Shown: positions 1 to 32,895, numbered from the stretch's first letter. The stretch is 64,000 nt of DNA from Chloroflexota bacterium (GCA_027624075.1 JAQBUH010000005.1:13198-77197), one strand, 5' to 3'. Program-made: numbers and translations. The notes: generated from the sequence alone by a model not told the origin.

Positions 1-330
1 GTAACCGCATGGCTTGGTGACGCGCCGTCCGAGGCGCTGAGCAAGCTCAGGCCAGATCACGGGGAACGTGGGGAGCGGGGCGAGCGCGGTCATGGTCCCA
101 GCGGTGACCGAGGTCACGGCCGAGGCTTCAGCGGACGGATGTTCGGCGAAGGGCCAGGCGGCGGACTCTTCGAAGGCCGCTTCCAGATCCGGCCTTACGT
201 CCCATCGGTAGACGCCGATGATGCCGGTGGCGCAGGAACCTCGACCTCTGCGGCGCTCGGCGACCTGGCGTAGCGTCAGATCATCGGCGAACGGCGCGGA
301 CCCCTGGCATGTGGCCGGTCGAACAACCAA
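1..330 (-). CDS. hypothetical protein (N-terminal part; 3' end lies beyond window start)
   Basis: Uninterrupted minus-strand frame runs from a possible TTG (328-330) to base 1, with GC-rich third codon positions (..FADDLTLRQVAERRRGRGSCATGIIGVYRWDVRPDLEAAFEES..). It is not in the ORF track because there is no stop inside the window. No family recognised; start uncertain. Confidence 0.3.
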   Translation of the reverse strand, partial: MVVRPATCQGSAPFADDLTLRQVAERRRGRGSCATGIIGVYRWDVRPDLEAAFEESAAWPFAEHPSAEASAVTSVTAGTMTALAPLPTFPVIWPELAQRLGRRVTKPCGY

Positions 331-701
331 TCAACGATGGCCGGCGGAGCATCCCTCTTCGCCGGCCATCTCTCGTGCGCGGCCTCACGGGTCAGACGCC
401 GATGCGTCCCGTGACGCGACAAAGTCCCGCTCTGCGAGGTCTGCCACTTCGTGTTGGACCGCTCACAAAAAGTGACCATGAGTGTTGACCACTCTCTTCA
501 GCGTAGGCTAGATTAAAGACCTGTGGCACAGTTCAGACGCGTCTCTGATCTTGCCGTCCAGGCGCGGCGCCGGCGAAAAGAGGGTGATCGTTATGAACAT
601 AGCAGCGTCTACCTCCATTCAGCGCGCCGATGCGCTCTCACGCCGTTCCGGCACATCCCACCGCCTGCGCTCCCTGAACTGAGCGCCCTCATCTGCGGCC
701 G

Positions 702-1877
702 ATGCTCCGGACCTGGAGCATCCTGTTGCCCTCCCTCGATCCAGTAAGTAATTTGCCTGATTCTGTGCCCGGGACCGGACATGACACGAACGCGTCCCGG
801 GTTTTAGCGCCAATTGGCTGGGACTCGACTCGGGTCGCCGAGTTTGCGCCATACGCCGCCGCAGGAATGCAACCCGGCAGGGTTGCGCGCGTCGATGGAC
901 TGTCGGTCATGCTCATCACGGCGGACGGGACCACCCGTGCAGAAAGTTCGACGGAGCTGCAGTCCGCGGCTGAGACCGCCGAGGCGTTGCCTGCCACAGG
1001 AGACTGGGTCGGGTTCAGCGCCCGGCCTTCGCACAACACCGACCTGATCGAGGTGTTGCTGCCGCGCAGTTCTCAACTCACCCGCACCCGGCAGGTCTTG
1101 AAATCCGCTATCGAGCGTCAGATTGTTGCGGTGAACCTGGACGTTGTGTTCATCGTCCATGCGGCGAACAACGTAAACCTGCGGCGGCTGGAACGAGAGG
1201 CCACGCAGGTGGCGGCGAGCGGGGCGCGGGTAGTCATCCTGCTGAACAAGGCTGACCTTTCCGGCGACATGGACCAACTGGTCTCCGAAGCTCTTGTCTC
1301 CGTGCCGGACGTGACCGTGCATCGCGTAAGCGGCGTCACCGGAGAGGGCGTCGAGGAGCTGGCCGCATATGCCCGCCCTGACAGGACGGTGGCATTCATC
1401 GGGGCGTCTGGCGTTGGGAAGTCAACGCTCATCAACCGCCTGCTCGGCCGGGAGGCCATGGACACGGGCGCGGTGAGGGAGGACGACCAGCGAGGCCGCC
1501 ACACGACGACGACCCGACACCTGTTGCCGCTCGATGGTGGCGGTGCGCTGATCGACACGCCAGGGGTGCGGTCGCTTGGCCTGTCGGATGCCGGCGAGGG
1601 CGTGGAGACGGTGTTCGATGACGTCGCTGCGCTGGCGCTCAAGTGCCGCTTTGCAGACTGCTCACATTCCGGCGAGCCTGATTGCGCTGTGCTTGAGGCT
1701 ATCCGCCGCGGCGAGCTGGCGAGAGCACGGCTGAACTCGTTTAAGAAGCTGAGCCTGGAGACGGAGTTTGCCGAGTCGAAGTCGGACGTGCGCCTGCGTC
1801 AGGCCAGGCGGGACCTGTGGAAGGCGAGAGCGAAGCGTGCACGGCAGAGGACGGACGCAGAGCAGAAACTCGACTAA
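702..1877 (+). CDS. rsgA: ribosome small-subunit-dependent GTPase A
   Basis: Circularly permuted GTPase motifs LLNKADL, GASGVGKSTLINRLLG and DTPGVRS. C-terminal zinc knuckle CRFADCSHSGEPDCAV. Start may be a little downstream. Confidence 0.9.
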   Translation: MLRTWSILLPSLDPVSNLPDSVPGTGHDTNASRVLAPIGWDSTRVAEFAPYAAAGMQPGRVARVDGLSVMLITADGTTRAESSTELQSAAETAEALPATGDWVGFSARPSHNTDLIEVLLPRSSQLTRTRQVLKSAIERQIVAVNLDVVFIVHAANNVNLRRLEREATQVAASGARVVILLNKADLSGDMDQLVSEALVSVPDVTVHRVSGVTGEGVEELAAYARPDRTVAFIGASGVGKSTLINRLLGREAMDTGAVREDDQRGRHTTTTRHLLPLDGGGALIDTPGVRSLGLSDAGEGVETVFDDVAALALKCRFADCSHSGEPDCAVLEAIRRGELARARLNSFKKLSLETEFAESKSDVRLRQARRDLWKARAKRARQRTDAEQKLD

Positions 1878-1981
1878 TCAGACTGACGAGAGCTTGATCC
1901 GCTTGCGTCCGGATGTCCGTAGCTGACCGCGGCTTACGCAGCCGTCTGGCATGTAAACGATCACCAAGGTCGCCCTACTGG

Positions 1982-2109
1982 CCCGGAACGTACTTCGTGT
2001 CCGGCTCAAACGGGTAGAGCGGCTTGCGGCGCCGGTTGTACGTGAAGTAGGAGAGGTCGGCGGTCGTCACACCAGGCGTGTTGACCAGGATGACCTCTCC
2101 TGCGATCAG
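1982..2109. repeat. direct repeat copy 1: orphan duplicate of the last ~42 codons of the M81/MlrC gene (minus-strand remnant ..KYVPGQ*, stop 1975-1977)
   Basis: Matches 3157-3284 at a constant offset of 1175 bp, with 4 mismatches by my count (2071, 2074, 2098, 2108). Still translates on the minus strand to IAGEVILVNTPGVTTADLSYFTYNRRRKPLYPFEPDTKYVPG. Confidence 0.9.
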
Positions 2110-3146
2110 TCACTATCCGGAAGTTTCCTTAGAAGAGACATCAGATCAAAAAGCCGCTTATTCTCTGTAGTTGTTGGGAAGTCTCTGAAATGCATTAAGC
2201 TGTTCCGTATGTTGAGTGCCCAATCTAATTCAGCATGCAATATTATTCGGTCGCATTTAGTCCCTAACCAATCCCAGCTGAACTGAGACTGCAATAATCG
2301 AATCATCTCGCCAAAACTTAACTCAGAAATCGGCAAAGTCTCATTAGCGGTGTCTTCAGATCTGAGCGCGTCATGCAATTCTTTTGGAGAGAATTTGGTG
2401 GCTATCATTCGTCCTAATCTGTTTTCTATTTCTTCCAGACGTCGAAATGGGCCTACAAGACGTGCAAAATCGGTGGCGATGTCATGAGTTGTGACTATGC
2501 CTTTGATCAGACCGTTTTTGTCAATCACTACTGCAACATTGCGCTCTCCCATAATGCTCAGAGCCTGCCCGACCTCCGTGTCAGACGGTACCGAATAGTT
2601 CTCTTGGTCTATGCAGTCTTTAACCGTCTGAGGTTTTTCATGCCAAAGTTTTGACACCACTGTCTTTAAGGAGATAATACCCACATATTTACGATGCCAA
2701 TCTTCAACAACTAATTGACTATAGTCATGAAGAAGCATTTCTGTGAGAGCGTTATCGAGAGGATCGTTCACCAGCACACAAGAAATAGATTGATCTTCTG
2801 GAATCAAGTCAGCAATTTTATACTCAGATATCGACGGTAGTTCACTGACCCCCTCAGATTCGTTTGAAGGTGATGATTCCACAGATAGTTGCGCAGACGG
2901 GATTACTGGTGAACTTTTCAGAGAAAAACGGATCATCGGACGATAAAGATCGGTATTTGAGGTCAGGGCAGGAGTGGCAATGAGACCGAGTTTAACTAGC
3001 GCATCGTTTACCGTATCAACCGATGAACCGCGGCGTCGCTGGTATCCGAATTCCGCAAGTACATTCACGAACATACGCCATCTGTTTGCGCCTGATTCAA
3101 GATCGGACTTAATGGTCTTTAGATATTCGATACCATTTTCAGCCAT
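2106..3146 (-). CDS. CBS-pair protein with C-terminal HEPN-like (Swt1-type, Rx4H) domain; putative ligand-regulated RNase
   Basis: 346-aa ORF that fills a visibly AT-richer block. Two CBS-like repeats at about aa 108-232 (..YSQLVVEDWHRKYVGIISLKTVV.. and ..RNVAVVIDKNGLIKGIVTTHDIATDF..). C-terminal helical region with motif IRNSLMH (R314-H319, nt 2190-2207). ATG lies 3 nt after the upstream stop. Confidence 0.75.
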   Translation of the reverse strand: MAENGIEYLKTIKSDLESGANRWRMFVNVLAEFGYQRRRGSSVDTVNDALVKLGLIATPALTSNTDLYRPMIRFSLKSSPVIPSAQLSVESSPSNESEGVSELPSISEYKIADLIPEDQSISCVLVNDPLDNALTEMLLHDYSQLVVEDWHRKYVGIISLKTVVSKLWHEKPQTVKDCIDQENYSVPSDTEVGQALSIMGERNVAVVIDKNGLIKGIVTTHDIATDFARLVGPFRRLEEIENRLGRMIATKFSPKELHDALRSEDTANETLPISELSFGEMIRLLQSQFSWDWLGTKCDRIILHAELDWALNIRNSLMHFRDFPTTTENKRLFDLMSLLRKLPDSD

Positions 3147-3149
3147 TGT

Positions 3150-4742
3150 CTAACTCCCCGGAACGTACTTCGTGTCCGGCTCAAACGGGTAGAGCGGCTT
3201 GCGGCGCCGGTTGTACGTGAAGTAGGAGAGGTCGGCGGTCGTCACGCCCGGCGTGTTGACCAGGATGACCTCGCCTGCGATCGGCTGGTATGCGGGCCGC
3301 GGGGACACGACGCCCTTCGCAACGACGATCTGGTAGTGCTCGGGGATGATGCCGGCCGCGTACATGCCGTACCGGGACGTGTTTCCGGTACGTCTGCTGT
3401 TCAGGAAGAGAGTGTGGCCGTCAGTGGTATCGAGCCGCACGGACACGCCCGCGTCATAGAAGCGGTAACCGCCATGGGTCGCGCCGAAGTCCTCCCAGTC
3501 ACCGTCGATGATCGCCCTTACTTTCCCTGTGACCTGGACAGGCTTCCCGTGCATGTTGTCCGTCTTTGCGCCAACCTTGAGCGTAACTTTGGCGCCCACT
3601 CCGGCTGCGACGCACGCCTCAACAGACTCAGGGTCGTAGAGCGACTGCAGCAGCGACTTCACGCCCATCTTCTGCGCCGCGGCGAGAATGAAGGTCGAGT
3701 CTGCGGATGAGCCACCGCCGATGTTGTCTCCAACGTCCATCAGGACTATCGGGCCTGTGCTGGGTGCTTTTCCGTCAGCCGTCTCGGCGGCAGCCGGCGC
3801 CGCAAGCGCTGTGCCGTCCATCGGCACCTCGACCCAGTCACCAAGCCTGCGAGGCCCGCGGTAGCGCTTCTGGGCGGTCTCAAGCGCATCTTTGATCGAG
3901 GAGACCGGCGTGTTCAGCGCCTCGCGGTGCTTCCAGGCCCGCTCGGCCATCCAGATAGCGGTCTCTTTCGCCAGTGCCGGGTTGTTGTCCGTGATGGCGA
4001 TCCAGCTCATCCCCATCTCGGCCACGTCCGAGTACGGGTAGCCTTCGGCTGTGCTTGTGTCCAGGACTCCGGGGCGCTTCAGGGCCTCGATCGAGTCTGC
4101 GACGATCGTCTTCATCGGCTCCTCGCCGGTGAACTGGCGGACGATGTTCACGACCATCGGCGGCATCTCTATCCACTGTGTCGGCTTGATCTCACCCTTC
4201 ACGGTGCGGTAGATCAGCTCGGCGCACTTGTAGCCGCGCGGCTTGGGGTCGAGGTGCGGGTTCGTGCGCCAGACGACGCAGACATCGGTGTTCGCGACGA
4301 CCGCCTTCGAGACGTTTGCGTGCATGTCCAGCGTGATTCCAACGGGCACGTTCGGGCCAACGATCTCCCGGACAGCGCGAGTGAACTCGCCGTCCATGTC
4401 AGGGAACTCCTCGGACACTGCTGCGCCGTGGTTTGGGAGCAGCACGGCGTCCCACGGTCCCTGGACGCGGAGCATCTGGAACATCTCGGCGGTGATGCGG
4501 TCGTATGCGTCCTTCGTGATGGTGCCGATCGGCCCTGTCTGCGCCCACATCAAGGGGACCGCCTCGAAGCCGAAATCCCTCGCCGCCTGCAGGTAGCCCG
4601 CGGTCGTGTAGAGAGCGCTCTCGAACTGCTTGACGATCTCATCGCCTCGCAGCAGGTCCGCCATCTCGAACTGGTGGTAGTCGGCAGGGACGCGGGAGAA
4701 GGTGTTTGTCTCGTGAGAGATGCCGAGGATAGCGAACCGCAT
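3150..4742 (-). CDS. M81 family metallopeptidase (MlrC/microcystinase C-like)
   Basis: N-terminus MRFAILGISHETNTFS is typical of the DUF1485/MlrC family. Length 530 aa. Confidence 0.8.
   Translation of the reverse strand: MRFAILGISHETNTFSRVPADYHQFEMADLLRGDEIVKQFESALYTTAGYLQAARDFGFEAVPLMWAQTGPIGTITKDAYDRITAEMFQMLRVQGPWDAVLLPNHGAAVSEEFPDMDGEFTRAVREIVGPNVPVGITLDMHANVSKAVVANTDVCVVWRTNPHLDPKPRGYKCAELIYRTVKGEIKPTQWIEMPPMVVNIVRQFTGEEPMKTIVADSIEALKRPGVLDTSTAEGYPYSDVAEMGMSWIAITDNNPALAKETAIWMAERAWKHREALNTPVSSIKDALETAQKRYRGPRRLGDWVEVPMDGTALAAPAAAETADGKAPSTGPIVLMDVGDNIGGGSSADSTFILAAAQKMGVKSLLQSLYDPESVEACVAAGVGAKVTLKVGAKTDNMHGKPVQVTGKVRAIIDGDWEDFGATHGGYRFYDAGVSVRLDTTDGHTLFLNSRRTGNTSRYGMYAAGIIPEHYQIVVAKGVVSPRPAYQPIAGEVILVNTPGVTTADLSYFTYNRRRKPLYPFEPDTKYVPGS
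3157..3284. repeat. direct repeat copy 2 (functional 3' end of the M81/MlrC CDS)
   Basis: See copy 1. Lies inside CDS 3150-4742. Confidence 0.9.
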
Positions 4743-4813
4743 TTTTCTGTTTCTCCTTGAGCGAGGTGACCGCCGGCGTTGTCGAATATCTGCCGGACGA
4801 CGGATGATTGCCG

Positions 4814-5983
4814 TTACAGCCTCACAGCGTGCCTCTTCAACGCCTTTTCGTTCAGTTCAGTACCCCAGCCCGGCCGCGTCGGGATGGTCACGCGGCCATT
4901 CTTGATCTCCGGCACATGTGTCACCAGCTCGTCGCGCCAGGGAACCTGCACGGGGTCTGACTCGCTGATAAGCACATTGTTTATGGATGCGCACAGGTTC
5001 ATCGTCTGGAACGTCGAGAGGTGGCCGTTGAAGTTGTGGGGCGCGATGTTCATGTCATACACCTCGGCCATCTTCGCAGCGTTGCGAGCAGGTGTGAAGC
5101 CCTGCCACTGCACGTCGACCTTCACAACGTCCATAGCACGCTCTTCGAACAGCGGCAGATAGTTGATTGGCCCGAGCTTCTGCTCGCCGGTGCAGATCGG
5201 CACGCGCGTGCTGTCCTTGACCATGCGCAGCGACTTTGCGTCCAGGTTGTCAATCTCCATCCAGAACAGGTCGAACGGCTCGAGCGCACGCCCGAGCCTG
5301 ATCTGGCCTGCGGCCTTGAAGTTGTAATTGACGTCCAGGCAGATCTCCATCTCAGGGCCTGCGACCTCCCGGAACGCCGATATCTGGCGCACCGCTATGT
5401 TGAGCAGATCACGCGTCACGGGCTGGTCATGCGGTCCGCTGCGGCCCTGGTTGATGCCGCTCCACGGGCCGTTGGCGTTTGGTATCAGGATGTTGGTCTT
5501 GAAGGTGTCGTAGCCGGCGGCTTTGGCCTGTTCCACTATCTTGCAGGCGTCGTCGAGCGACCTGATTGGCGATGTGCCGAGGCGGTCTGACCTCCCGGCC
5601 TGGTAGGTGGCGAGGTGGGACCAGTAGACCTTCTGCTCAGTGCGAGTGGGTCCGCCGAACAGCTCGTACACAGGGACGCCGAGCGCTTTGCCCTTCACAT
5701 CCCAGAGCGCCAGCTCTATGCCCGCCATCGCCTGCCATGTCGCCCCGCCGTAAACGGACTGAGTGCCCCGGAGCATGTCCATGTACAGCCTCTCGACCTG
5801 CCGCGGGTCCTGGCCGACTATGAAACGTGACAGGTCCTTGACGAGTCCCGCCATTCCGTTGGCTACGACGCCCTCGCCGAACTCAGAGTAGCCGGAGAGC
5901 CCATCGTCTGTGCGGACGATGCAGAACATCCACGGCGCGGCCAGACCTTCGACGGCGACGGCTTCGACTGATGTGACCTTCAT
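4814..5983 (-). CDS. enolase-superfamily enzyme (mandelate racemase/muconate lactonizing, dehydratase-like)
   Basis: 389 aa. Capping domain plus TIM barrel pattern (..ALWDVKGKALGVPVYELFGG.., ..EEPL-like WMEID.., ..ICTGEQ..). Confidence 0.85.
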   Translation of the reverse strand: MKVTSVEAVAVEGLAAPWMFCIVRTDDGLSGYSEFGEGVVANGMAGLVKDLSRFIVGQDPRQVERLYMDMLRGTQSVYGGATWQAMAGIELALWDVKGKALGVPVYELFGGPTRTEQKVYWSHLATYQAGRSDRLGTSPIRSLDDACKIVEQAKAAGYDTFKTNILIPNANGPWSGINQGRSGPHDQPVTRDLLNIAVRQISAFREVAGPEMEICLDVNYNFKAAGQIRLGRALEPFDLFWMEIDNLDAKSLRMVKDSTRVPICTGEQKLGPINYLPLFEERAMDVVKVDVQWQGFTPARNAAKMAEVYDMNIAPHNFNGHLSTFQTMNLCASINNVLISESDPVQVPWRDELVTHVPEIKNGRVTIPTRPGWGTELNEKALKRHAVRL

Positions 5984-6141
5984 ACTTCCTCTTCACGGAC
6001 CGCTATTACGAATAATAAAGACTGTGGCGACGCCGGGATGTGGCTCCGGACTGACCGGAGACCACACGGGCGAGCATGCGGCGGCAAGGCCGCGGCTACT
6101 AGCGTCGCTCCGGCGCACATTACCACCGGCAGGCCGCGCCG

Positions 6142-7248
6142 TCAGCGGTCGACGAACGGCACTTCGAGCCGGGCCGGAGCCTTGCTCCTGACGGACCTGA
6201 AGATCAGGTATCCGGCGGTGATGACAGAGACCGGCAGCACAACACCCAGGGCGACGATGCTGGCGGGCGTTAGCAGGTCCGCATTGATCGAAATGGCGAT
6301 CAGGGTCGACAGATAAATGGCGTAAAAACCCAGCATGAGCAGCCCGTCCCTGCGCCCGGCCCGTTTTCCGATGATGACGATGGACAGCACGACGATTCCG
6401 ACTGTGACTGCGACCGGGAAGTCGAGCCGGAGCGCCTCGGAAGGGACTATGAGTCCGCCGCCTGAGACCAGCGCAGAGGCGCCTATGACGCCGAGCACGT
6501 TGATCACACTGGCGCCTACCGCGTTACCTATCGCAAGGTCGGTCTCGCCGCGGAGCGCTGCGACAATCGCGGTGGTGAGTTCCGGCGCTGACGTGCCTGC
6601 TGCGACGATCGTCAGGCCAATGATCAACTCGCTCACGCCAAGCGCCGAGGCGATATCGGACGCTGAGTTGACGAACAGTCGTGAGCCAAGGATCAGGAGC
6701 GCTGCGCCTGCGCCTGAAAAAACAACGCCTATCCCCATCTCGTTCAACGCCGCCCTTCGCGTCCGGGTGACGAATGACTCACGCGTGGCGCGTGCTGTCC
6801 GGCGGGACTGCAAGATTGAGAATGTTATGAAGCCGGCGAGGGCGAGGAGCAGGAGGATGCCTTCCCACTCAACCACGGTCCCGTTGACGGCAAGCAGGTA
6901 GACAACGGCCGTCGCAATGATCAGCACCGGCAGGTCTTTACGGATGGTGATGTTGGAGACCGGGATGGCGATGATGGTGGCGGCTGCGCCCGCGACCACA
7001 AGGATGTTGAAGATGTTGCTGCCCAGGACGTTGCCGACCGCAAGCCCGCCGCGGCCGTCTGCGGCTGCCACGATGGACACGCTGGCTTCGGGCGTAGTTG
7101 TGGCGAACGAGACGATCGTCAGCCCGACCACGAGCGGCGACAGACCTGCGAGCCGCCCGAGTCTTGTCGCCCCGCGCACGAGGCCTTCCGCCCCGACGAC
7201 GAGCAGCACCAGACCGGCGAGGAACAGAATGAGGTCGAGGATGTTCAT
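6142..7248 (-). CDS. Ca2+/Na+ (CaCA family, YrbG-like) antiporter
   Basis: Two alpha-repeat motifs (GLTIVSFATTTPE.., GNVLGSNIFNIL / GLTIVAAGTSAPE.., GNAVGASVINVL). ATG 7246-7248 overlaps the upstream stop (ATGA), so the shorter start was chosen. Confidence 0.85.
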   Translation of the reverse strand: MNILDLILFLAGLVLLVVGAEGLVRGATRLGRLAGLSPLVVGLTIVSFATTTPEASVSIVAAADGRGGLAVGNVLGSNIFNILVVAGAAATIIAIPVSNITIRKDLPVLIIATAVVYLLAVNGTVVEWEGILLLLALAGFITFSILQSRRTARATRESFVTRTRRAALNEMGIGVVFSGAGAALLILGSRLFVNSASDIASALGVSELIIGLTIVAAGTSAPELTTAIVAALRGETDLAIGNAVGASVINVLGVIGASALVSGGGLIVPSEALRLDFPVAVTVGIVVLSIVIIGKRAGRRDGLLMLGFYAIYLSTLIAISINADLLTPASIVALGVVLPVSVITAGYLIFRSVRSKAPARLEVPFVDR

Positions 7249-8030
7249 GCGGGTCTCGTGAGGACCTCGACCCATGTCGGCCGCAGCCCGGCGGCGAGCG
7301 CTGTCCGCATCGAAGGGACGTTTGAGCTGCTTGTGCCGTAGTAGGGCAGCGCTCCGGCTGCGAACACGGCGCGTGCGGCCGCTGCGGTCATCGCCGGGGC
7401 GAGTCCGTTGCCGCGGTGCTCAGGGAGCACGTCTATGCCTATCTGGTACATGAACTCCGAGTCCTTGGACACGCCTGCGACTCCCACAACGTCGCCGTTC
7501 CGCTCGGCGACAGCGGCCAGCACGGTTGGACGGCCGGAGACGCCCGGCTCAGGGAAGAGCGAATTTGGAAACAACCGACGGTCAATCATAGTCCGATTCC
7601 GGGCGAGGTCGGACTCTATATCGGTGACGCGTATCGAGTAGCCGGGAGCGTGCGATGGCTCGGTTATAGCAGAGAGCGGCGCTGTGAAACGCGGGTACGG
7701 GCCGTGGACCGTAAGGCCGAGCCGCCTGCCCCGGCCGATCAATGCCGCAAGCAGGCCGTCGCGAAATAGCTCGTCCCTGCCGGCGTTGCGGAACGTCCGT
7801 TGCGCCCACTCCAGGTCCTCTTGCTCAACCGATATCACTGCGCCGGTCCCGAGTGTAACCGCGCCAATCCTGCCCGGATGAGGATTGAAAGCCCTGTGCT
7901 GAGGCATGGATCTGCGCCCGGGGACTCTTGTCACAACGTGGACGCGGCCGTCTGTCAGGTGATCCGGCTCGCACCCCGTTTCGGCAGACAGCATCGCCAT
8001 CACCGTCTCGCGGACCTGCCTGGAGTTCAT
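7245..8030 (-). CDS. GNAT family N-acetyltransferase
   Basis: C-terminal acetyl-CoA motif region ..IGIDVLPEHRGNGLAPAMTAAAA... Confidence 0.65.
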   Translation of the reverse strand: MNSRQVRETVMAMLSAETGCEPDHLTDGRVHVVTRVPGRRSMPQHRAFNPHPGRIGAVTLGTGAVISVEQEDLEWAQRTFRNAGRDELFRDGLLAALIGRGRRLGLTVHGPYPRFTAPLSAITEPSHAPGYSIRVTDIESDLARNRTMIDRRLFPNSLFPEPGVSGRPTVLAAVAERNGDVVGVAGVSKDSEFMYQIGIDVLPEHRGNGLAPAMTAAAARAVFAAGALPYYGTSSSNVPSMRTALAAGLRPTWVEVLTRPA

Positions 8031-8040
8031 TCAGCGGGTC

Positions 8041-9492
8041 TCACAGGTCCGGGTGCCGCATATGCCAGCCGGTGGATTGCTCGTGGGCGTGAGCCAGCTG
8101 CAACAGGCCAAGGTCGTCATGCAGCGCCGATGTAAGCATTGCGCCGATGGGTAGCCCGGTGCTTTCAGAGAACCCTGCGGGAACGCTGACAGACGGGTGG
8201 CCGGTGATGTTGAATGGCGCTGTGTAGCAGGCGTTAATGCCTCGGGAGTGCTCGCCCGGCCTGCGAGACCGCTCCGCAGTGACGAAGGGTGAAGTCGGCA
8301 TTGCGATGACGCGGACTCCGGAGCCGCGGCCGGCCCCGCTCCCGGCAAATACTTCGGTCTCCAGCAGGCCGCGCACGGTCCGGCCAACCTCCGCCGCGTT
8401 CAACAGGTCATGCGCGCCGAGGTACGCGCCCTGCAGCAGGTAGACGCGTGTGATCTCGCCATAGCTGTCCCAGCTCTCGCCGAGGCTCTTCGCGTGCCTC
8501 TGGTACGCCTCAGCGTTTAGCACGAGGAAATTCGCCATGCGGGCTTCGGCCAGACCCCGGACAGGCACGTCGACGACCTCGCAGCCGATCGATTCGAGGT
8601 CCGCGATGAACCTCTCGAAGGAGTCTGTGACCTCCGGCTCGTTCGGGGCGGAGCGTACGAATGTCCACGGCACGCCGACTCGCCAGCCTCGCACGTCCGC
8701 GTCATTGAGCTTCGCCGTGTAGCCAACCGGCCTTCCTGGCCAGCTCATGTCGTCTTCCGGCACGAACCCTCCAAGCGCGTCCAGCATTAGCGCCGCGTCT
8801 TCGACTGTGCGGGTGAGTGGCGAGATCTCGCTGTGCGAGTTGTGGTCCATCCCGAGGCGGCTGACAAGGCCGTGGGTTGGCTTGAACCCGATCAGGCCGT
8901 GCGCGCCTCCGGGCAGCCGGATGGAGCCGCCGCCATCTGTGCCGATAGCGGCCGAAGCGAGGCCGCCACTGGCTGCGACCCCTGAGCCTGAACTCGAGCC
9001 GACCGAGGCGAAGCGCGGGTTCCACGGATTCCATGGCGGCGGAGCGAGGTCGGCCTCGGACGGCCTCGACCAGCCGAATTCGTTCAGGTTTGCCTTGCCG
9101 ATGATGATCGCTCCGGCCGCCTTTAGCCGGGTGACGGCGGCGGCGTCGTGACCGGGGACCCAGTTGGCGAGCAGGTTGCTGTTATCTGTGGTGCGGAGAC
9201 CCTTCGTCGGAATCGAGTCTTTTGCCGCGATGGGAATGCCGGCCAGCGGACCGGTCTCATCGCCGCGGCTGACCGCCTCATCGACCAGTCTCGCCTGTTC
9301 AAGCGCTCCATCTTCGTCGACGGTGATGAAACTGTTCAGTTGAGGGTTGTGGGCGCGAATCCTGCCGAGGTATGCCCTCACCAGCGCGACCGCCGAAAGC
9401 TCGCGGTTACGGATGCGTCGCGCCTGTTCGGCGAGCGGCAGGTAATGGAGCGGCTCTTCCGGCTGAGAGTTCTGTTGGGTGCTGTCGGTCAT
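8041..9492 (-). CDS. amidase (amidase-signature family, GatA/AtzE-like)
   Basis: AS signature ..GSSSGSGVAASGGLASAAIGTDGGGSIRLP.. and Lys in ..IAAKDSI... Confidence 0.9.
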   Translation of the reverse strand: MTDSTQQNSQPEEPLHYLPLAEQARRIRNRELSAVALVRAYLGRIRAHNPQLNSFITVDEDGALEQARLVDEAVSRGDETGPLAGIPIAAKDSIPTKGLRTTDNSNLLANWVPGHDAAAVTRLKAAGAIIIGKANLNEFGWSRPSEADLAPPPWNPWNPRFASVGSSSGSGVAASGGLASAAIGTDGGGSIRLPGGAHGLIGFKPTHGLVSRLGMDHNSHSEISPLTRTVEDAALMLDALGGFVPEDDMSWPGRPVGYTAKLNDADVRGWRVGVPWTFVRSAPNEPEVTDSFERFIADLESIGCEVVDVPVRGLAEARMANFLVLNAEAYQRHAKSLGESWDSYGEITRVYLLQGAYLGAHDLLNAAEVGRTVRGLLETEVFAGSGAGRGSGVRVIAMPTSPFVTAERSRRPGEHSRGINACYTAPFNITGHPSVSVPAGFSESTGLPIGAMLTSALHDDLGLLQLAHAHEQSTGWHMRHPDL

Positions 9493-9548: not shown

Positions 9549-9755
9549 TCAGGAGCTGTCTTCGCCGTCGACGGTCTGCGACAGCCGGCCAGCGTCCAAC
9601 TCGGCGGGGAACACCGGCGCCAGCGATGCCATGCGGTCTGCGGCGGCGCGCACTCCGGCAAGCAGGTTGTGCAGCTGTTCAGCGTCGGCTTCGCTGAGTG
9701 GGACTGCCGGTCTCAGGCGACGAAGTATGTCTGACGGTGATCCGGGGTCTTCCAA
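9549..9755 (-). CDS. small hypothetical protein, possible GatC/AtzG-like partner of the downstream amidase
   Basis: 68 codons with a TTG start, 56 nt upstream of the amidase on the same strand. Helical ..LSEADAEQLHNLLAGVRAAADRM.. is reminiscent of GatC-type helpers. Weak. Confidence 0.35.
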   Translation of the reverse strand: MEDPGSPSDILRRLRPAVPLSEADAEQLHNLLAGVRAAADRMASLAPVFPAELDAGRLSQTVDGEDSS

Positions 9756-10030
9756 CGGTCTTCTCTTGCGCTGTGGCTCTTGAGCCTGGGGTGCGGCGAT
9801 GATAGCAGCGCCGGACAGTGCTCTATTCAGGAGTTGCCAGCGGCGCCAGTGGGGCCTGAGATGCCGGGGCGAGAGCAGATGCTCAGAGCAAAGGTCCCGG
9901 TGGGGCGTCCCGGCACTCCCGGGGACATTGCGCCGCCGGTCGTTTTCCCGTGATCAGACGCTGCGTCCTACGCCGCAGGTGGCGAGTCCGTGACCGATGG
10001 CGGCGTGACGGTGATTTGAGGGATTTTCAG

Positions 10031-31340: not shown

Positions 31341-32126
31341 TCAGCCGGCGGCTTTCCAGCCTTCCGGCAGCGGCCATTCCTTGATGCCGTCCTCCGGCAC
31401 ATAACCGATGACTTCACGTGCGTGTTCGAGATCGCGGAACCGGGTGAAGTTGTCCGAGACGCCAAACACGATATCGAACTTGACGCTGTCCGGCGCCTCG
31501 ACGCACCTGCGCACCACCTGCGCAGCGTCCCTGTGGCTCAGGTAGACCGCTGCCTCTCGTGCGTTTGCCGGGCGGTCTTCGGCGCGAACACGCCCGAGCC
31601 TGACGCAGATGACGGAGATGCCGTGCTGCTCTGCGAAAGAGCGGCCGAGCGCCTCTCCAAACAGCTTGACCGCGCCGTACAGGCTGTCCGGCCGCGGCGG
31701 GTCGAGGTGCGTGAGGAGCGGGCGCGGGTGTGGGATGTTTGCGAGGCGGGCTTCGGTCATTGCCAGGAACGGCTCTTCTGTCTCGTACGCGTGCATCGTC
31801 GAGCCAGAGCTCCCGAACACGATTCTCCTGACCCCGGACTCGCGCGCCGCCTGGAACACGTTGTGCGTGCCGCGGACGTTGACTTCGAGCTGCTGCTGAT
31901 CGTCCCCGCCCAAGTAGGCGGCCATGTGTACGACCGTGTCGACGCCCTCGAAGGCAGGTCTGATGGCGTTGAGGTCCGTGATGTCTGCCGTGACGGTCTC
32001 GAACCCTTCGACCGGCCGGCGGTTGAGGGCGCTGACCCGGTATGACTTTGCAAGGTCACGCCCTGCGACACCGCCGATGATGCCGCTCATGCCTGTGACC
32101 AGGACCGCTTTCTGTGTCTCTGCCAT
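31341..32126 (-). CDS. NAD-dependent epimerase/dehydratase (SDR)
   Basis: ..KAVLVTGMSGIIGG.. Rossmann motif, ..YGAVK.. catalytic pair. Confidence 0.8.
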   Translation of the reverse strand: MAETQKAVLVTGMSGIIGGVAGRDLAKSYRVSALNRRPVEGFETVTADITDLNAIRPAFEGVDTVVHMAAYLGGDDQQQLEVNVRGTHNVFQAARESGVRRIVFGSSGSTMHAYETEEPFLAMTEARLANIPHPRPLLTHLDPPRPDSLYGAVKLFGEALGRSFAEQHGISVICVRLGRVRAEDRPANAREAAVYLSHRDAAQVVRRCVEAPDSVKFDIVFGVSDNFTRFRDLEHAREVIGYVPEDGIKEWPLPEGWKAAG

Positions 32127-32136
32127 CGCGTAACTC

Positions 32137-32895
32137 CTAGTAGCCGTGCTGTACCGCACTGTCTTCTGGCGTGTAGCCAAGCACATCATGCGCGTGGCTC
32201 CAGTCGCGGTAGTTGAGCGGGTTGTCCGAGACGCTGAAAAAGATGTTGAAACGGAGGTCTTCCGGAGCGGCGACGCAGAGCCTGAGCAACCGCATCATAT
32301 CGCCGTGGCTGCACCAGACGGCGGCGTTCCGGGCGTTTGCGGGAACGTTGTTGATCTCGACCTTGCCGACGCGGATACACAGCACAGAAAGACCGTGGGC
32401 CTCCGAGTAGGCGCGGCCGATCGCCTCGCTCCAGAGCTTGGTCACGGCGTAGAGGCAGCGCGGTCGAGGAGGCTGGTCGACGGTGATCATCTTGACGCTG
32501 CCCGGCCGGGTATCGGGCCGGACGCCATTGACCATCGAGCGGTACGGCTCATCTTTCTCATAGCCGCCGACCACTGCGCCTGTGCTTGCCAGGATGACGC
32601 GCCTCGCTCCGGCCTGCCGCGCCGCCTCAAGCACGTTGTAGACACCGATTACGTTGGCGCGGTAGTGCACATCGAAAGGCTGGTTGCCGCGGGACGCTGC
32701 CATGTGGATGACGGTCTTGACGCCGTCGAAAGCCGGCCGCATCGAGTCGAAGTCGGCGATGTCTGCGACGGTATACGGCCAGCCGTCCACAGGCGTGCGG
32801 CCGATGTCGCTGACTTCGTAGTCGCCGGAGAGCGTGCGTGCGGCCAGCCCGCCTATGAGGCCGGACATTCCTGTGATGAGGACCTTTTCTCTCAT
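32137..32895 (-). CDS. NAD-dependent epimerase/dehydratase (SDR), tandem paralogue
   Basis: ..KVLITGMSGLIGG.., ..YAVTK... ATG 32893-32895. Confidence 0.8.
   Translation of the reverse strand: MREKVLITGMSGLIGGLAARTLSGDYEVSDIGRTPVDGWPYTVADIADFDSMRPAFDGVKTVIHMAASRGNQPFDVHYRANVIGVYNVLEAARQAGARRVILASTGAVVGGYEKDEPYRSMVNGVRPDTRPGSVKMITVDQPPRPRCLYAVTKLWSEAIGRAYSEAHGLSVLCIRVGKVEINNVPANARNAAVWCSHGDMMRLLRLCVAAPEDLRFNIFFSVSDNPLNYRDWSHAHDVLGYTPEDSAVQHGY

What the first reader, a model, noticed from the sequence alone, without database searches (positions are those of the whole stretch)
1975..3284. 1.05-kb low-GC single-gene cassette bracketed by 128-bp direct repeats that duplicate the 3' end of the neighbouring MlrC-like gene
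Positions 1982-2109 and 3157-3284 are the same sequence at a constant offset of 1175 bp. I count 4 mismatches: 2071/3246, 2074/3249, 2098/3273 and 2108/3283. Copy 2 is the real 3' end of the M81/MlrC CDS (..IAGEVILVNTPGVTTADLSYFTYNRRRKPLYPFEPDTKYVPGS*). Copy 1 is an orphan fragment that still encodes the same 42 aa (..KYVPGQ*, stop 1975-1977). The three internal mismatches are all synonymous third-position changes (GGC/GGA, CCG/CCT, GGC/GGT). The two copies therefore look like diverged alleles of a coding sequence rather than a slippage product. Between them lies exactly one ORF (2106-3146) that is visibly AT-richer (roughly 40-45% GC by eye, versus about 63-65% around it). Its ATG is 3 nt after the MlrC stop (TAG ACA ATG). 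Its TGA abuts the orphan fragment and is in the same frame. This geometry is what a Campbell-type single crossover would leave, if a circle of about 1175 bp (cassette plus 128 bp of homology) integrated here. The mismatches cluster at the cassette-proximal end of copy 1, which fits a crossover in the identical part. No integrase, transposase or attC-like site is visible, so how the cassette moved is open.
Basis: partly seen in the sequence, partly recalled or inferred. Interest (0 to 1): 0.75.

Follow-up and report, generated by a model that had tools for sequence, protein, structure and literature searches.

The report
Defence gene cassette with duplicated gene-end
A single foreign anti-phage-type gene sits directly behind a bacterial peptidase gene and is bracketed by two copies of that gene's last 128 bases, which is the scar expected if a small DNA circle recombined in without any enzyme of its own; relatives of this gene show the same scar behind other housekeeping genes.

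Summary
Positions 1982-2109 and 3157-3284 are a 128-nt direct repeat with 4 mismatches. The repeat brackets one low-GC ORF (GC 0.44, against 0.64 for the neighbouring gene). Three assemblies show the junctions. A relative with 97% identity has the exact empty site: mlrC ends in ...PGQ*, followed by the same flank, with 1175 bp missing.

The ORF is a divergent homologue of DS-11, a validated one-protein CBS+HEPN anti-phage system. It has no promoter of its own. Its ATG lies 3 nt after the mlrC stop, and the new mlrC tail (GGG AGT TAG) provides a GGAG.

Differences between the repeat copies sit only at the two ends next to the cassette. That fits integration by one homologous crossover of a circle carrying the cassette and an mlrC arm.

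The geometry recurs among DS-11 relatives behind purD and a LuxR-type regulator gene. In the census, 8 of 121 family genes are bracketed, against 5 of 495 control ORFs. One Bradyrhizobium locus preserves the joint of a circularised donor fragment.

The closest known kinds are unconventional circularizable structures and Rhs C-terminal displacement. No circle was observed.

The parts
3150..4742 (-). Anchor gene: M81/MlrC-family peptidase gene, intact, 530 aa, ending ...KYVPGS*.
   Evidence: ORF list. Pfam DUF1485 2.5e-85 and MlrC_C 1.5e-46. The closest homologues, at 82-98% identity, mostly end in ...VPGQ.
3157..3284 (-). Direct repeat copy 2: the working 3' end of mlrC. At mismatches 3283, 3273 and 3246 it carries the same base as the empty-site relative.
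3147..3157 (-). Cassette-borne tail and junction, read 5'->3' on the minus strand as GGAG-T-TAG-ACA. GGAG is at 3157-3154, the new mlrC stop TAG at 3152-3150, and the spacer ACA at 3149-3147. It replaces the native GGC CAG TAG and puts a Shine-Dalgarno-like GGAG 7 nt before the cassette ATG. It also contains GTTAGAC (3148-3154), which matches the integron core GTTRRRY.
   Evidence: Sequence. Comparison with copy 1 and three relatives. GTTRRRY scan. The ribosome-binding role is an inference.
2106..3146 (-). Cassette ORF, 346 aa: a small N-terminal domain, a disordered linker, a CBS pair and a C-terminal helical domain with the R-N-x3-H-F (HEPN-type) motif. It is a divergent homologue of the DS-11 anti-phage protein. 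GC 0.439.
   Evidence: Pfam CBS 3.8e-14. NCBIfam DS11_antiphage 183.8 bits, E 4e-54, below the 260-bit cut-off. Family alignment with invariant DYSQL and RN..xHF. Structure model with pLDDT 81. The Tyr of the E. coli homologue's DYSQL is Y157, the residue shown to be essential in DS-11.
1982..2109 (-). Direct repeat copy 1: the orphan mlrC 3' fragment. Its cassette-proximal 38 nt carry the four mismatches, of which 2108, 2098 and 2071 are unique to this copy among all relatives examined.
1975..1981 (-). Native mlrC tail (G)GC CAG TAG. It runs straight into the native intergenic flank, as in the empty-site relative.
2049..2101 (-). Hairpin beginning 4 nt after the cassette stop codon, inside copy 1. 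Mismatch 2098 turns an interrupted stem into a perfect 10-bp outer stem. As RNA it folds at -31.4 kcal/mol (z -3.4), against -27.9 (z -1.9) for the same stretch of copy 2.
   Evidence: Any role as a 3' stabiliser or terminator is speculative, and no T-run follows.
702..1877 (+). Convergent rsgA-type GTPase gene. It marks the far side of the insertion site and is the same neighbour as in the empty-site relatives.
   Evidence: Pfam RsgA_GTPase 7.4e-44. L006 and L009 have mlrC directly followed by rsgA.

Best explanation
The cassette is a promoterless, single-gene DS-11-like (CBS+HEPN) defence cassette. It entered the 3' end of mlrC by insertion-duplication.

The proposed sequence of events is this. 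A small non-replicating DNA circle of 1175 bp carried the ORF plus about 135 bp copied from the 3' end of an mlrC allele. The circle underwent one homologous crossover with the resident mlrC. This left mlrC intact but with the circle's last two codons and stop (GGG AGT TAG). The cassette now follows 3 nt downstream and reads from the mlrC transcript, with a GGAG provided by the new tail. The resident gene's original end was displaced behind the cassette as an orphan.

Recombination between the two repeats would excise the circle again and restore the native gene, so the unit can move among relatives that share the anchor gene without encoding any recombinase.

Shown: the repeat, the foreign composition, the exact empty site, which tail is native, the polarity of the mismatches, and the recurrence of the geometry in the family.

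Inferred: the circle, the dependence on host homologous recombination, co-transcription and translational coupling, and the anti-phage function.
For: Empty site. L006 is 97% identical on both sides with no imported tract, and it lacks exactly 1175 bp. Its mlrC ends GGC CAG TAG and is followed by the flank that follows copy 1 here. L009 and L007 also lack the cassette.

Polarity. The copies differ only next to the cassette. Copy 2 differs in its last 7 nt. Copy 1 differs in its first 38 nt; the chance that all four differences fall there is 0.008. The 89-nt centre is identical. Bases next to the cargo are the ones least likely to be exchanged in repeated excision and integration.

No mobility gene. 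The only ORF inside is the CBS-HEPN protein. No inverted repeats sit at the cassette ends. No recombinase family is annotated in the called neighbours for about 6 kb beyond mlrC (window 3150-9146) or in the 1.7-2.9 kb held beyond copy 1.

Recurrence. Among 121 evaluable DS-11-like genes, 8 are tightly bracketed by direct repeats, against 5 of 495 other ORFs in the same loci (odds ratio 6.9, p = 0.001). Three of those 8 (L049, L103, L130) are integron-type or multi-copy intergenic repeat arrays. That leaves 5 of 121 against 3 of 495, a split I did not test separately.

Where the repeat is a gene end, it is the 3' end of the co-oriented upstream gene. Examples are purD in Tardiphaga (L025, 40 nt, 100%), a soil contig (L159, 80 nt, 94%) and B. 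betae (L173, 86 nt, 92%), and a LuxR-type regulator gene in Rhodococcus (L077). Further examples are L017, L037, L041 and L095.

Fossil circle joint. In L173 the order is purD, cassette, a degenerate copy of the 5' end of the downstream hydrolase gene, the purD orphan, then the intact hydrolase gene. A circularised fragment running from the purD 3' part through the cassette to the hydrolase 5' part would give exactly this order after one crossover in purD. Relatives L170 and L174 show the matching donor arrangement without an orphan.

Allele-like differences. In the purD repeats, 5 of 5 (L159) and 5 of 7 (L173) internal differences are synonymous.

Precedent. Recombinase-less circles bounded by direct repeats have been demonstrated experimentally (PMC7843796, PMC10770853). 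A circular intermediate carrying a core fragment was proposed for Rhs tips (PMC2935791).
Against: No circle, tandem or excision read was observed. With an 89-nt identical core, these forms create no new k-mers, so the assemblies cannot show them.

The foreign DNA ends exactly at the ORF's stop codon, which is a tight fit for a random fragment end.

The arm is nearly identical to the host gene except at its extremities. The low-GC gene must therefore have acquired the arm in a close relative by an earlier event that remains unexplained.

No donor with mlrC followed by the cassette but without a repeat was found. The cassette protein has no relative above 35% identity apart from itself.

Codon-position statistics over all loci (about 52% third positions) do not clearly exceed what in-situ duplication plus drift would give.

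In Bradyrhizobiaceae, gene conversion between the copies could also keep the orphans similar to the working gene.
Confidence: 0.58

Rival explanations
1. One-sided homologous recombination with an illegitimate join (homology-facilitated illegitimate recombination, or break repair that copies a donor). A linear donor fragment consisting of the mlrC 3' end and the cassette anchors in mlrC on the left. Its right end, just after the cassette stop, joins by microhomology to the recipient about 135 nt upstream of the mlrC stop. This duplicates that stretch.
For: The right junction shows possible microhomology: cassette ...GACTGATCG against mlrC ...CCGATCG. This route was proposed for displaced T6SS effector-immunity modules and Rhs tips (PMC5361080). 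It needs no circle and could explain how a first repeat arises. Identity to L006 is uniform on both sides, so neither model is contradicted.
Against: The model gives no reason for the illegitimate join to land inside the same gene just upstream of the anchor in many independent loci. It predicts that copy 1 is entirely recipient sequence, yet three bases of copy 1 next to the cassette occur in no relative, whereas copy 2 matches the relatives there. In L173 the right end of the donor fragment was homologous to the recipient's hydrolase gene. An ordinary double crossover without any duplication would therefore have been expected from a linear fragment.
Confidence: 0.2
2. Remnant or satellite of a site-specific integrative element that targets the 3' end of mlrC and carries a replacement gene end, as phage 21 and e14 do at icd (from my own knowledge). 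The repeats would be attL and attR. The integrase has been lost or acts in trans.
For: The geometry is the same: an intact target gene with an element-borne end, and the displaced native end on the far side.
Against: No integrase lies inside or nearby. The ORF fills the space between the repeats to within 3 nt on one side and 0 nt on the other, which is unlikely for a decayed larger element. Relatives of the cassette show the same geometry at unrelated target genes with locally derived repeats. That argues against a fixed att site.
Confidence: 0.07
3. In-situ target duplication during a non-homologous insertion, through staggered breaks about 128 nt apart or replication template switching. The four mismatches and the altered tail would have arisen afterwards.
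For: The foreign DNA is essentially the bare ORF. Repeat lengths vary widely among loci, from 40 to 205 nt. The codon-position bias over all loci is compatible with one selected copy plus one drifting copy. Mismatch 2098 improves a hairpin, so some differences may be post-insertion changes.
Against: In L159, L025 and L077 the homology runs to the stop codon with synonymous differences. The new tail is therefore a diverged gene end and not random foreign DNA. All four mismatches fall in 38 of 128 nt (p = 0.008). L173 contains donor flank DNA between the cassette and the orphan.
Confidence: 0.07
4. An integron gene cassette that landed at a non-canonical genomic site.
For: DS-11-like genes are true integron-type cassettes elsewhere. 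L049 and L103 have arrays with repeats that start GCCTAAC and end GTTAGGC or GTTAGGT, and L022 has GTTGGGC. In the window, GTTAGAC (GTTRRRY) lies 1 nt before the ATG. From my own knowledge, cassette insertion at non-classical genome sites has been reported.
Against: There is no attC. The sequence after the stop is an mlrC coding copy without an R''/R' core pair. No integron integrase appears in the annotated neighbourhood. Integron insertion does not duplicate 128 nt of target. GTTRRRY occurs 77 times in the window, so the site before the ATG is only mildly unexpected.
Confidence: 0.04
5. Chimeric assembly across a shared 89-nt sequence.
For: The data are metagenomic, and the NCBI MAG contig breaks inside the cassette at 2951.
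Against: Three assemblies agree. The Logan unitig links the cassette to copy-specific variants on both sides, and L003 links the cassette through copy 1 to rsgA. The low-GC ORF is fused in a precise, gene-preserving way. The same geometry is seen in isolate genomes (L025 Tardiphaga robiniae, L173 B. betae).
Confidence: 0.03

Closest known systems
Unconventional circularizable structures (UCS; Palmieri et al. 2013, as described in PMC7843796) and host-gene-mediated circular intermediates in Campylobacter (pcp-, tetO-mediated; PMC10770853)
   Same: A DNA segment bounded by two direct repeats and encoding no recombinase. It is expected to loop out as a circle carrying one repeat and to re-enter wherever a homologous copy exists. 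The repeat is an ordinary host gene sequence and not a dedicated site.
   Different: Known UCSs carry antibiotic-resistance genes, and their repeats are described as usually long (PMC7843796). Here the repeat is only 128 nt. It is precisely the 3' end of a chromosomal housekeeping-type gene that stays intact. The cargo is one promoterless defence-type gene coupled to that gene. Circularisation has not been shown.
Rhs C-terminal displacement (PMC2935791) and sequential displacement of T6SS effector-immunity modules (PMC5361080)
   Same: An incoming module attached to a fragment of the resident gene recombines into that gene's 3' part and pushes the old end downstream as an orphan. A circular intermediate (Rhs) or homology-facilitated illegitimate recombination (T6SS) has been proposed.
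   Different: In those systems the incoming piece changes the protein's toxic C-terminal domain and brings an immunity gene. Here the anchor protein is unchanged except for its last residue (Q to S), and the cargo is unrelated to the anchor's function.
Integrative elements that insert into the 3' end of a protein-coding gene and carry a replacement end (phage 21 and e14 at icd; from my own knowledge)
   Same: The target gene is kept intact by an element-borne gene end with synonymous differences. The native end is left as a pseudo-fragment at the far junction.
   Different: Those are elements of 15-40 kb with their own integrase and a fixed att core. This unit is 1.05 kb with a single non-recombinase gene, and its relatives sit at different target genes.
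Integron gene cassettes
   Same: A promoterless single ORF with a minimal 5' leader that depends on upstream transcription. DS-11-like genes do occur as such cassettes (L049, L103, L022). A GTTRRRY motif lies just before the ATG here.
   Different: There is no attC, no integron integrase in the annotated neighbourhood, and a 128-nt duplication of the target.
DS-11 anti-phage system (DefensePredictor study, PMC13092281; NCBIfam NF053863)
   Same: A one-protein architecture with a CBS pair followed by HEPN. The Tyr equivalent to DS-11 Y157 and the HEPN R-N-x3-H motif are both conserved.
   Different: Only 28% identical to the E. coli homologue examined here (L176, taken to be DS-11 or a close variant) and below the family's curated score cut-off. 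Defence activity is untested for this protein.

Membership tests
Unconventional circularizable structure (UCS) | Segment bounded by two direct repeats in the same orientation | tested here: met
   128-nt repeats at 1982-2109 and 3157-3284, 97% identical.
Unconventional circularizable structure (UCS) | No recombinase or transposase gene within the segment | tested here: met
   The only ORF of meaningful length inside is the CBS-HEPN protein. No inverted repeats lie at its ends.
Unconventional circularizable structure (UCS) | Excision as a circle with one repeat, leaving one repeat behind | not testable with these tools
   This needs outward PCR or read-level data. The predicted post-excision product does exist as the empty site in a 97% relative, but that may equally be the ancestral state.
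Integron gene cassette | attC site (imperfect palindrome with RYYYAAC ... GTTRRRY) at the 3' end of the ORF | tested here: not met
   The sequence after the stop is a copy of mlrC coding sequence. It folds into a hairpin but has no paired core sites.
Integron gene cassette | Promoterless ORF starting shortly after a G|TTRRRY crossover site | tested here: met
   GTTAGAC at 3148-3154(-), 1 nt before the ATG. There are 77 such motifs in the window, so this is weak evidence.
Integron gene cassette | Integron integrase and attI, or an array of attC sites, nearby | tested here: not met
   Neighbouring genes encode amidase, acetyltransferase, Na/Ca exchanger, enolase-superfamily protein, MlrC and RsgA. 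No other repeats occur in the window. The rest of the 64 kb was not scanned for intI.
Site-specific integrative element with replacement gene end (phage 21/e14-icd type) | Duplicated target-gene 3' end at both junctions, with the target kept intact | tested here: met
Site-specific integrative element with replacement gene end (phage 21/e14-icd type) | Integrase gene next to an att site | tested here: not met
   None inside the unit, and none among the annotated neighbours for about 6 kb beyond mlrC or in the 1.7-2.9 kb held beyond copy 1.
Transposon or insertion sequence | Transposase, terminal inverted repeats and a short target-site duplication | tested here: not met
   No transposase ORF. 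No inverted repeats at the cassette ends. The duplication is 128 nt.
Rhs-type C-terminal displacement | Old 3' end displaced downstream while retaining part of the conserved gene | tested here: met
   The orphan at 1975-2109 keeps the last 43 codons of mlrC.
Rhs-type C-terminal displacement | The incoming piece replaces a variable C-terminal domain and brings a cognate immunity gene | tested here: not met
   The two ends encode the same 42 residues, and only the last residue differs (Q/S). The cargo is a CBS-HEPN gene.
DS-11 anti-phage protein (NCBIfam NF053863) | Score above the curated family cut-off | tested here: not met
   183.8 bits against a cut-off of 260 (E 4e-54, covering profile positions 3-296 of 305). 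The closer relatives P0002 and P0012 pass.
DS-11 anti-phage protein (NCBIfam NF053863) | CBS pair with the adenine-contacting Tyr (Y157 in DS-11) | tested here: met
   Pfam CBS. The model's CBS pair matches solved CBS pairs. DYSQL is invariant in the alignment (Y142 here). In an E. coli homologue that Tyr is residue 157, the residue mutated in PMC13092281.
DS-11 anti-phage protein (NCBIfam NF053863) | C-terminal HEPN domain with catalytic R-x4-H | tested here: inconclusive
   R314-N315-x3-H319-F320 is invariant in 25 sequences, and the region is all-helical in the model. However, no Pfam HEPN model matched, and the fold search returned only CBS matches.
DS-11 anti-phage protein (NCBIfam NF053863) | Protects against phage | not testable with these tools
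   Needs a plaque assay.

The most novel reading that the evidence does not exclude
DS-11-like defence genes, and possibly other small defence genes, form a class of recombinase-less 'armed cassettes'. Each rides on the last 40-200 bases of a conserved housekeeping gene. It borrows that gene's promoter and ribosome loading. It spreads among relatives by host homologous recombination through excised or circularised intermediates, and successive cassettes can stack behind the same anchor gene. If so, this would be a general and so far unrecognised route by which immune genes move and persist outside defence islands.
Probability: 0.3. Interest if true: 0.78.

Novelty: new variant of a known kind. 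Interest (0 to 1): 0.6.

Why it matters
Most newly found anti-phage genes lie outside recognisable mobile elements, and how they get there is an open question. Here one such gene is caught with a clean before-and-after comparison. It has no mobility gene, and its scar points to plain homologous recombination of a small circle carrying a copy of the host gene's end.

The same scar appears around relatives of this gene behind other housekeeping genes in several phyla, and in Bradyrhizobiaceae the gene is persistently tied to purD. If this route is general, it gives a simple, searchable signature for recent defence-gene gain: a low-GC single ORF just after a stop codon, followed by an orphan copy of the upstream gene's end. 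It would also explain how promoterless immune genes come to be expressed from core operons. The idea can be tested directly with outward PCR and circle-transformation experiments.

Tried and rejected
- PADLOC gave no hit for the cassette protein.
- Pfam found nothing in the N- or C-terminal parts on their own.
- The fold search against the PDB returned only CBS pairs, so the HEPN fold could not be confirmed structurally.
- Exact-sequence look-ups of the cassette protein, MlrC and RsgA found only the same scaffold, one unitig and one MAG contig. They showed no second context for this cassette.
- The closest MlrC variants with odd tails (P0085 ...PGK, P0087 ...PGI) were checked as possible further replacements of the gene end. 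Both are plain empty sites.
- No homologue occurs in the phage collection, and only three distant ones in the plasmid collection.
- The promoter and terminator scan found nothing useful around the cassette.
- A whole-window repeat scan found no second structure of this kind.
- Sliding identity to the empty-site relative showed no imported tract next to the insertion. It therefore could not tell a circle from a linear donor.
- The codon-position test over all repeat pairs was not decisive.
- The attC idea was rejected after folding the repeat and scanning for core sites.
- A tRNA-gene target was excluded for the related loci.

Full report
**1. The observation**

Positions 1982-2109 and 3157-3284 are the same sequence at an offset of 1175 nt. 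They differ at four positions: 2071/3246, 2074/3249, 2098/3273 and 2108/3283. A scan of all 64 kb finds no other direct repeat of comparable length and identity.

Copy 2 is the end of a 530-aa M81/MlrC-family gene at 3150-4742 on the minus strand. Copy 1 encodes the same 42 residues and then Q and a stop, where the working gene has S and a stop.

Between the copies lies one ORF, 2106-3146 on the minus strand, 346 aa. Its GC is 0.439 and its GC3 0.412, against 0.639 and 0.844 for mlrC. It is the only strong compositional outlier in the window.

The cassette TGA (2106-2108) is one base out of register with the orphan reading frame. It overlaps the first bases of the repeat, and the mismatch at 2108 is what creates it.

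**2. Is it an assembly artefact?**

The window matches an ENA metagenome scaffold of 97.8 kb.

A separate Logan unitig of 1146 nt equals window 3186..2041 exactly. It carries the cassette joined to the copy-2-specific tail on one side and to the copy-1-specific variants on the other. It ends precisely where 31-mers become shared between the two copies.

An NCBI MAG contig runs from inside the cassette through copy 1 into rsgA. It differs only at three bases at its own contig end.

A chimera is therefore unlikely. The same geometry also occurs in isolate genomes (section 6).

**3. The empty site**

The closest MlrC homologue is 98% identical and ends ...VPGQ. Its contig (L006) is about 97% identical to the window for 7.6 kb on the mlrC side and about 94-97% on the rsgA side.

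L006 lacks exactly the 1175 bp. Its mlrC ends GGC CAG TAG and runs into the same intergenic flank that follows copy 1 here. Two more distant relatives, at 92% and 89%, also lack the cassette.

Copy 1 therefore carries the native gene end and flank. The tail of the working gene, GGG AGT TAG, occurs in none of the relatives.

At three of the four internal mismatches, copy 2 has the base seen in the empty-site relative, while copy 1 has a base seen nowhere else. At the fourth, a fourfold-degenerate site that varies among relatives, copy 1 matches L006.

**4. What the cassette encodes**

Pfam finds a CBS pair.

NCBIfam places the protein in DS11_antiphage at 183.8 bits (E 4e-54) over almost the whole profile. 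This is below the curated cut-off of 260 bits, which closer relatives pass.

DS-11 is a one-protein system with CBS and HEPN domains. It was shown to protect E. coli from phage, and mutating Y157 in the CBS domain or the HEPN catalytic residues abolished defence (PMC13092281).

In an alignment of 25 family members, DYSQL (Y142 here) and R-N-x3-H-F (314-320) are invariant. In an E. coli homologue the Tyr of DYSQL is residue 157.

A structure model (pLDDT 81) shows four parts: a small N-terminal domain, a disordered linker, a CBS pair that matches solved CBS pairs, and a helical C-terminal part. The HEPN fold itself was not confirmed by Pfam or by fold search.

I therefore call the protein a divergent DS-11 homologue whose function is untested.

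**5. Expression (inferred)**

The ATG lies 3 nt after the mlrC stop, so there is no room for a promoter, and the promoter scan finds none. The new mlrC tail reads CCG GGG AGT TAG ACA ATG. This places GGAG 7 nt before the ATG. The native tail, GGC CAG TAG, has no such motif. The cassette is thus most likely read from the mlrC transcript by coupled translation.

Beginning 4 nt after its stop, copy 1 can form a hairpin. The mismatch at 2098 perfects its outer stem. Whether this matters is unknown.

**6. The same scar elsewhere**

I collected 160 loci encoding relatives of the cassette protein from genomes and metagenomes.

Of 121 evaluable family genes, 8 are tightly bracketed by direct repeats. 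Of 495 other ORFs of at least 200 aa in the same loci, 5 are bracketed, and several of those are immediate neighbours in the same arrays (odds ratio 6.9, p = 0.001).

Two kinds of bracket appear.

*Integron-type attC arrays or multi-copy intergenic repeats.* These are L049 and L103 (repeats starting GCCTAAC and ending GTTAGGC or GTTAGGT), L022, and the multi-copy array L130. Three of them (L049, L103, L130) are among the 8 bracketed genes. That leaves 5 of 121 against 3 of 495, a split I did not test separately.

*Duplicated host gene ends.* In these loci the repeat is the 3' end of the co-oriented upstream gene, exactly as in the window:
- purD in Tardiphaga robiniae (L025, 40 nt, 100%);
- purD in a soil contig (L159, 80 nt, 94%);
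- purD in Bradyrhizobium betae (L173, 86 nt, 92%);
- a LuxR-type response-regulator gene in Rhodococcus (L077, 205 nt, 80%);
- further cases in L017, L037, L041 and L095.

There are three variants. In L163 the repeat is the ribosome-binding site plus the first eight codons of the downstream ppk2 gene. In L014 and L026 another gene has been inserted between an anchor gene and the DS-11-like gene, again with a duplicated anchor end.

**7. The purD lineage**

Homologues of the Tardiphaga cassette at 59-74% protein identity all sit immediately after purD in Bradyrhizobium and its relatives. Three of these loci have no orphan (L170, L171, L174), and three have one (L025, L159, L173).

In L173 the order is:
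1. purD;
2. the cassette;
3. a degenerate copy (73%) of the first 210 nt or so of the downstream hydrolase gene;
4. the purD orphan with the native stop and intergenic region;
5. the intact hydrolase gene.

This is the product expected if a fragment running from the purD 3' part through the cassette to the hydrolase 5' part was taken from a donor arranged like L170 or L174. The fragment would have been circularised and then integrated by one crossover in purD.

Within the purD repeats, 5 of 5 (L159) and 5 of 7 (L173) differences are synonymous. The two copies therefore look like alleles that both evolved as working gene ends.

**8. Mechanism for the window**

The best reading is insertion-duplication by one homologous crossover of a circle of 1175 bp. 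The circle carried the cassette plus about 135 bp of an mlrC allele.

This reading explains five things:
- the exact, gene-preserving insertion;
- which tail is native;
- the absence of any mobility gene or terminal inverted repeat;
- the uniform divergence of both flanks from the empty-site relative;
- the concentration of differences at the two cassette-proximal ends, with an identical 89-nt centre (p = 0.008 for the four internal sites).

On the last point, the bases closest to the cargo are the least likely to be swapped in repeated rounds of excision and integration. They therefore keep older sequence while the centre takes on the current host's sequence.

The model does not explain two things. 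One is how the low-GC gene first acquired a host-like arm. The other is why the foreign DNA ends exactly at the stop codon.

**9. Rivals**

*One-sided homologous event closed by an illegitimate join.* This gives almost the same product, and possible microhomology (GATCG) at the right junction favours it. It does not explain why the join falls inside the same gene in many loci. It does not explain why copy 1 carries unique bases next to the cassette. It does not explain why L173 did not simply undergo a double crossover.

*Decayed site-specific element.* This is unlikely given the tight fit of the ORF between the repeats and the different target genes in relatives.

*In-situ duplication.* This is disfavoured by the homologous, synonymously diverged tails in the purD and LuxR cases, but it cannot be excluded from the window alone.

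*Integron origin.* This is plausible for the gene itself: family members are integron cassettes, and GTTAGAC lies before the ATG. It does not account for the repeat, and no attC is present.

**10. Comparison with what is known**

Recombinase-less segments bounded by direct repeats that loop out as circles are known as unconventional circularizable structures (PMC7843796). Circles mediated by ordinary host genes have been shown to transfer resistance genes in Campylobacter (PMC10770853).

Displacement of an old gene end by an incoming module attached to a gene fragment was described for Rhs, with a circular intermediate proposed (PMC2935791). It was also described for T6SS effector-immunity modules, with homology-facilitated illegitimate recombination proposed (PMC5361080).

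The present case works like these but differs in four ways. The repeat is short and is precisely the end of a housekeeping-type gene that stays intact. The cargo is a single promoterless defence-type gene coupled to that gene. The pattern recurs within one validated defence family across phyla. I found no description of this in the papers searched.

I rate it a new variant of a known kind.

**11. Verdict**

Interest is moderate to high. The window gives a clean natural example with its empty site. The recurrence suggests a simple, searchable route for defence-gene gain outside islands. The mechanism remains an inference that read-level analysis and a circle-transformation experiment could settle.

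Noticed in passing
L049 5517-8740; L103 594-2818; L022 775-2003; L130 4404-6910: DS-11-like genes sit in arrays of co-oriented ORFs separated by repeats of about 65-160 nt. In L049 and L103 the repeats begin RYYYAAC (GCCTAAC) and end GTTRRRY (GTTAGGC or GTTAGGT), as integron attC sites do. So this defence family also travels as integron cassettes, including in a Flavobacteriaceae genome (Winogradskyella).
   Followed up: partly
window 3148-3154 (-): GTTAGAC, a match to the integron crossover core GTTRRRY, lies 1 nt before the cassette ATG. It could be a fossil of an integron origin or a chance match (77 such motifs in the window).
   Followed up: partly
L170, L171, L173, L174, L025, L159: Across Bradyrhizobium and Tardiphaga relatives, a DS-11-like gene of lower GC (0.45-0.49 against 0.64-0.67) always sits immediately after purD. 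The cassette proteins have diverged to 59-74% identity. This is a long-lived or repeatedly renewed linkage between a defence gene and a purine-biosynthesis gene.
   Followed up: partly
L014 4623-5976; L026 4606-5704: A different gene is inserted between an anchor gene and the DS-11-like gene, again with a duplicated anchor 3' end. In L014 the insert is a 385-aa protein with an M78-peptidase-like domain and the anchor is an Eco57I-type R-M gene. In L026 the insert is a 171-aa ORF and the anchor is ribE. In L014 both downstream genes start 1-2 nt after a TGA. This looks like stacking of cassettes behind one anchor.
   Followed up: partly
L163 1745-1784 and 2575-2614: Mirror-image case. The repeat is the ribosome-binding site plus the first eight codons of the downstream ppk2 gene. 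The DS-11-like ORF therefore starts with ppk2's own initiation region (MKGEKGE...).
   Followed up: no
window 2049-2101 (-) versus 3224-3276 (-): The mlrC 3' region contains an imperfect hairpin. In the orphan copy, the mismatch at 2098 makes its outer stem a perfect 10 bp, beginning 4 nt after the cassette stop codon (RNA -31.4 against -27.9 kcal/mol).
   Followed up: partly
window 1-379 and 2951: The window extends 379 nt beyond the end of the ENA scaffold, so it comes from another assembly. The NCBI MAG contig JAQCKV010000196.1 ends inside the cassette at 2951, with three mismatches in its last 30 nt. This looks like contig-end noise, but a coverage or strain break inside the cassette is not excluded.
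   Followed up: no
window 1801-2000 versus L006: The rsgA-mlrC intergenic region differs from the empty-site relative by a 22-nt indel and has lower identity (0.90) than the surrounding genes.
   Followed up: no
window 31449-31505 and 32221-32277: A 57-nt direct repeat at 72% identity, 772 nt apart. It is probably two related coding segments.
   Followed up: no
L082 219-460 / 1366-1614; L043 7910-8144 / 9645-9881: Longer direct repeats (about 240 nt, 82%) lie next to DS-11-like genes and bracket other small ORFs. They may be paralogous small genes or further insertion-duplications.
   Followed up: no
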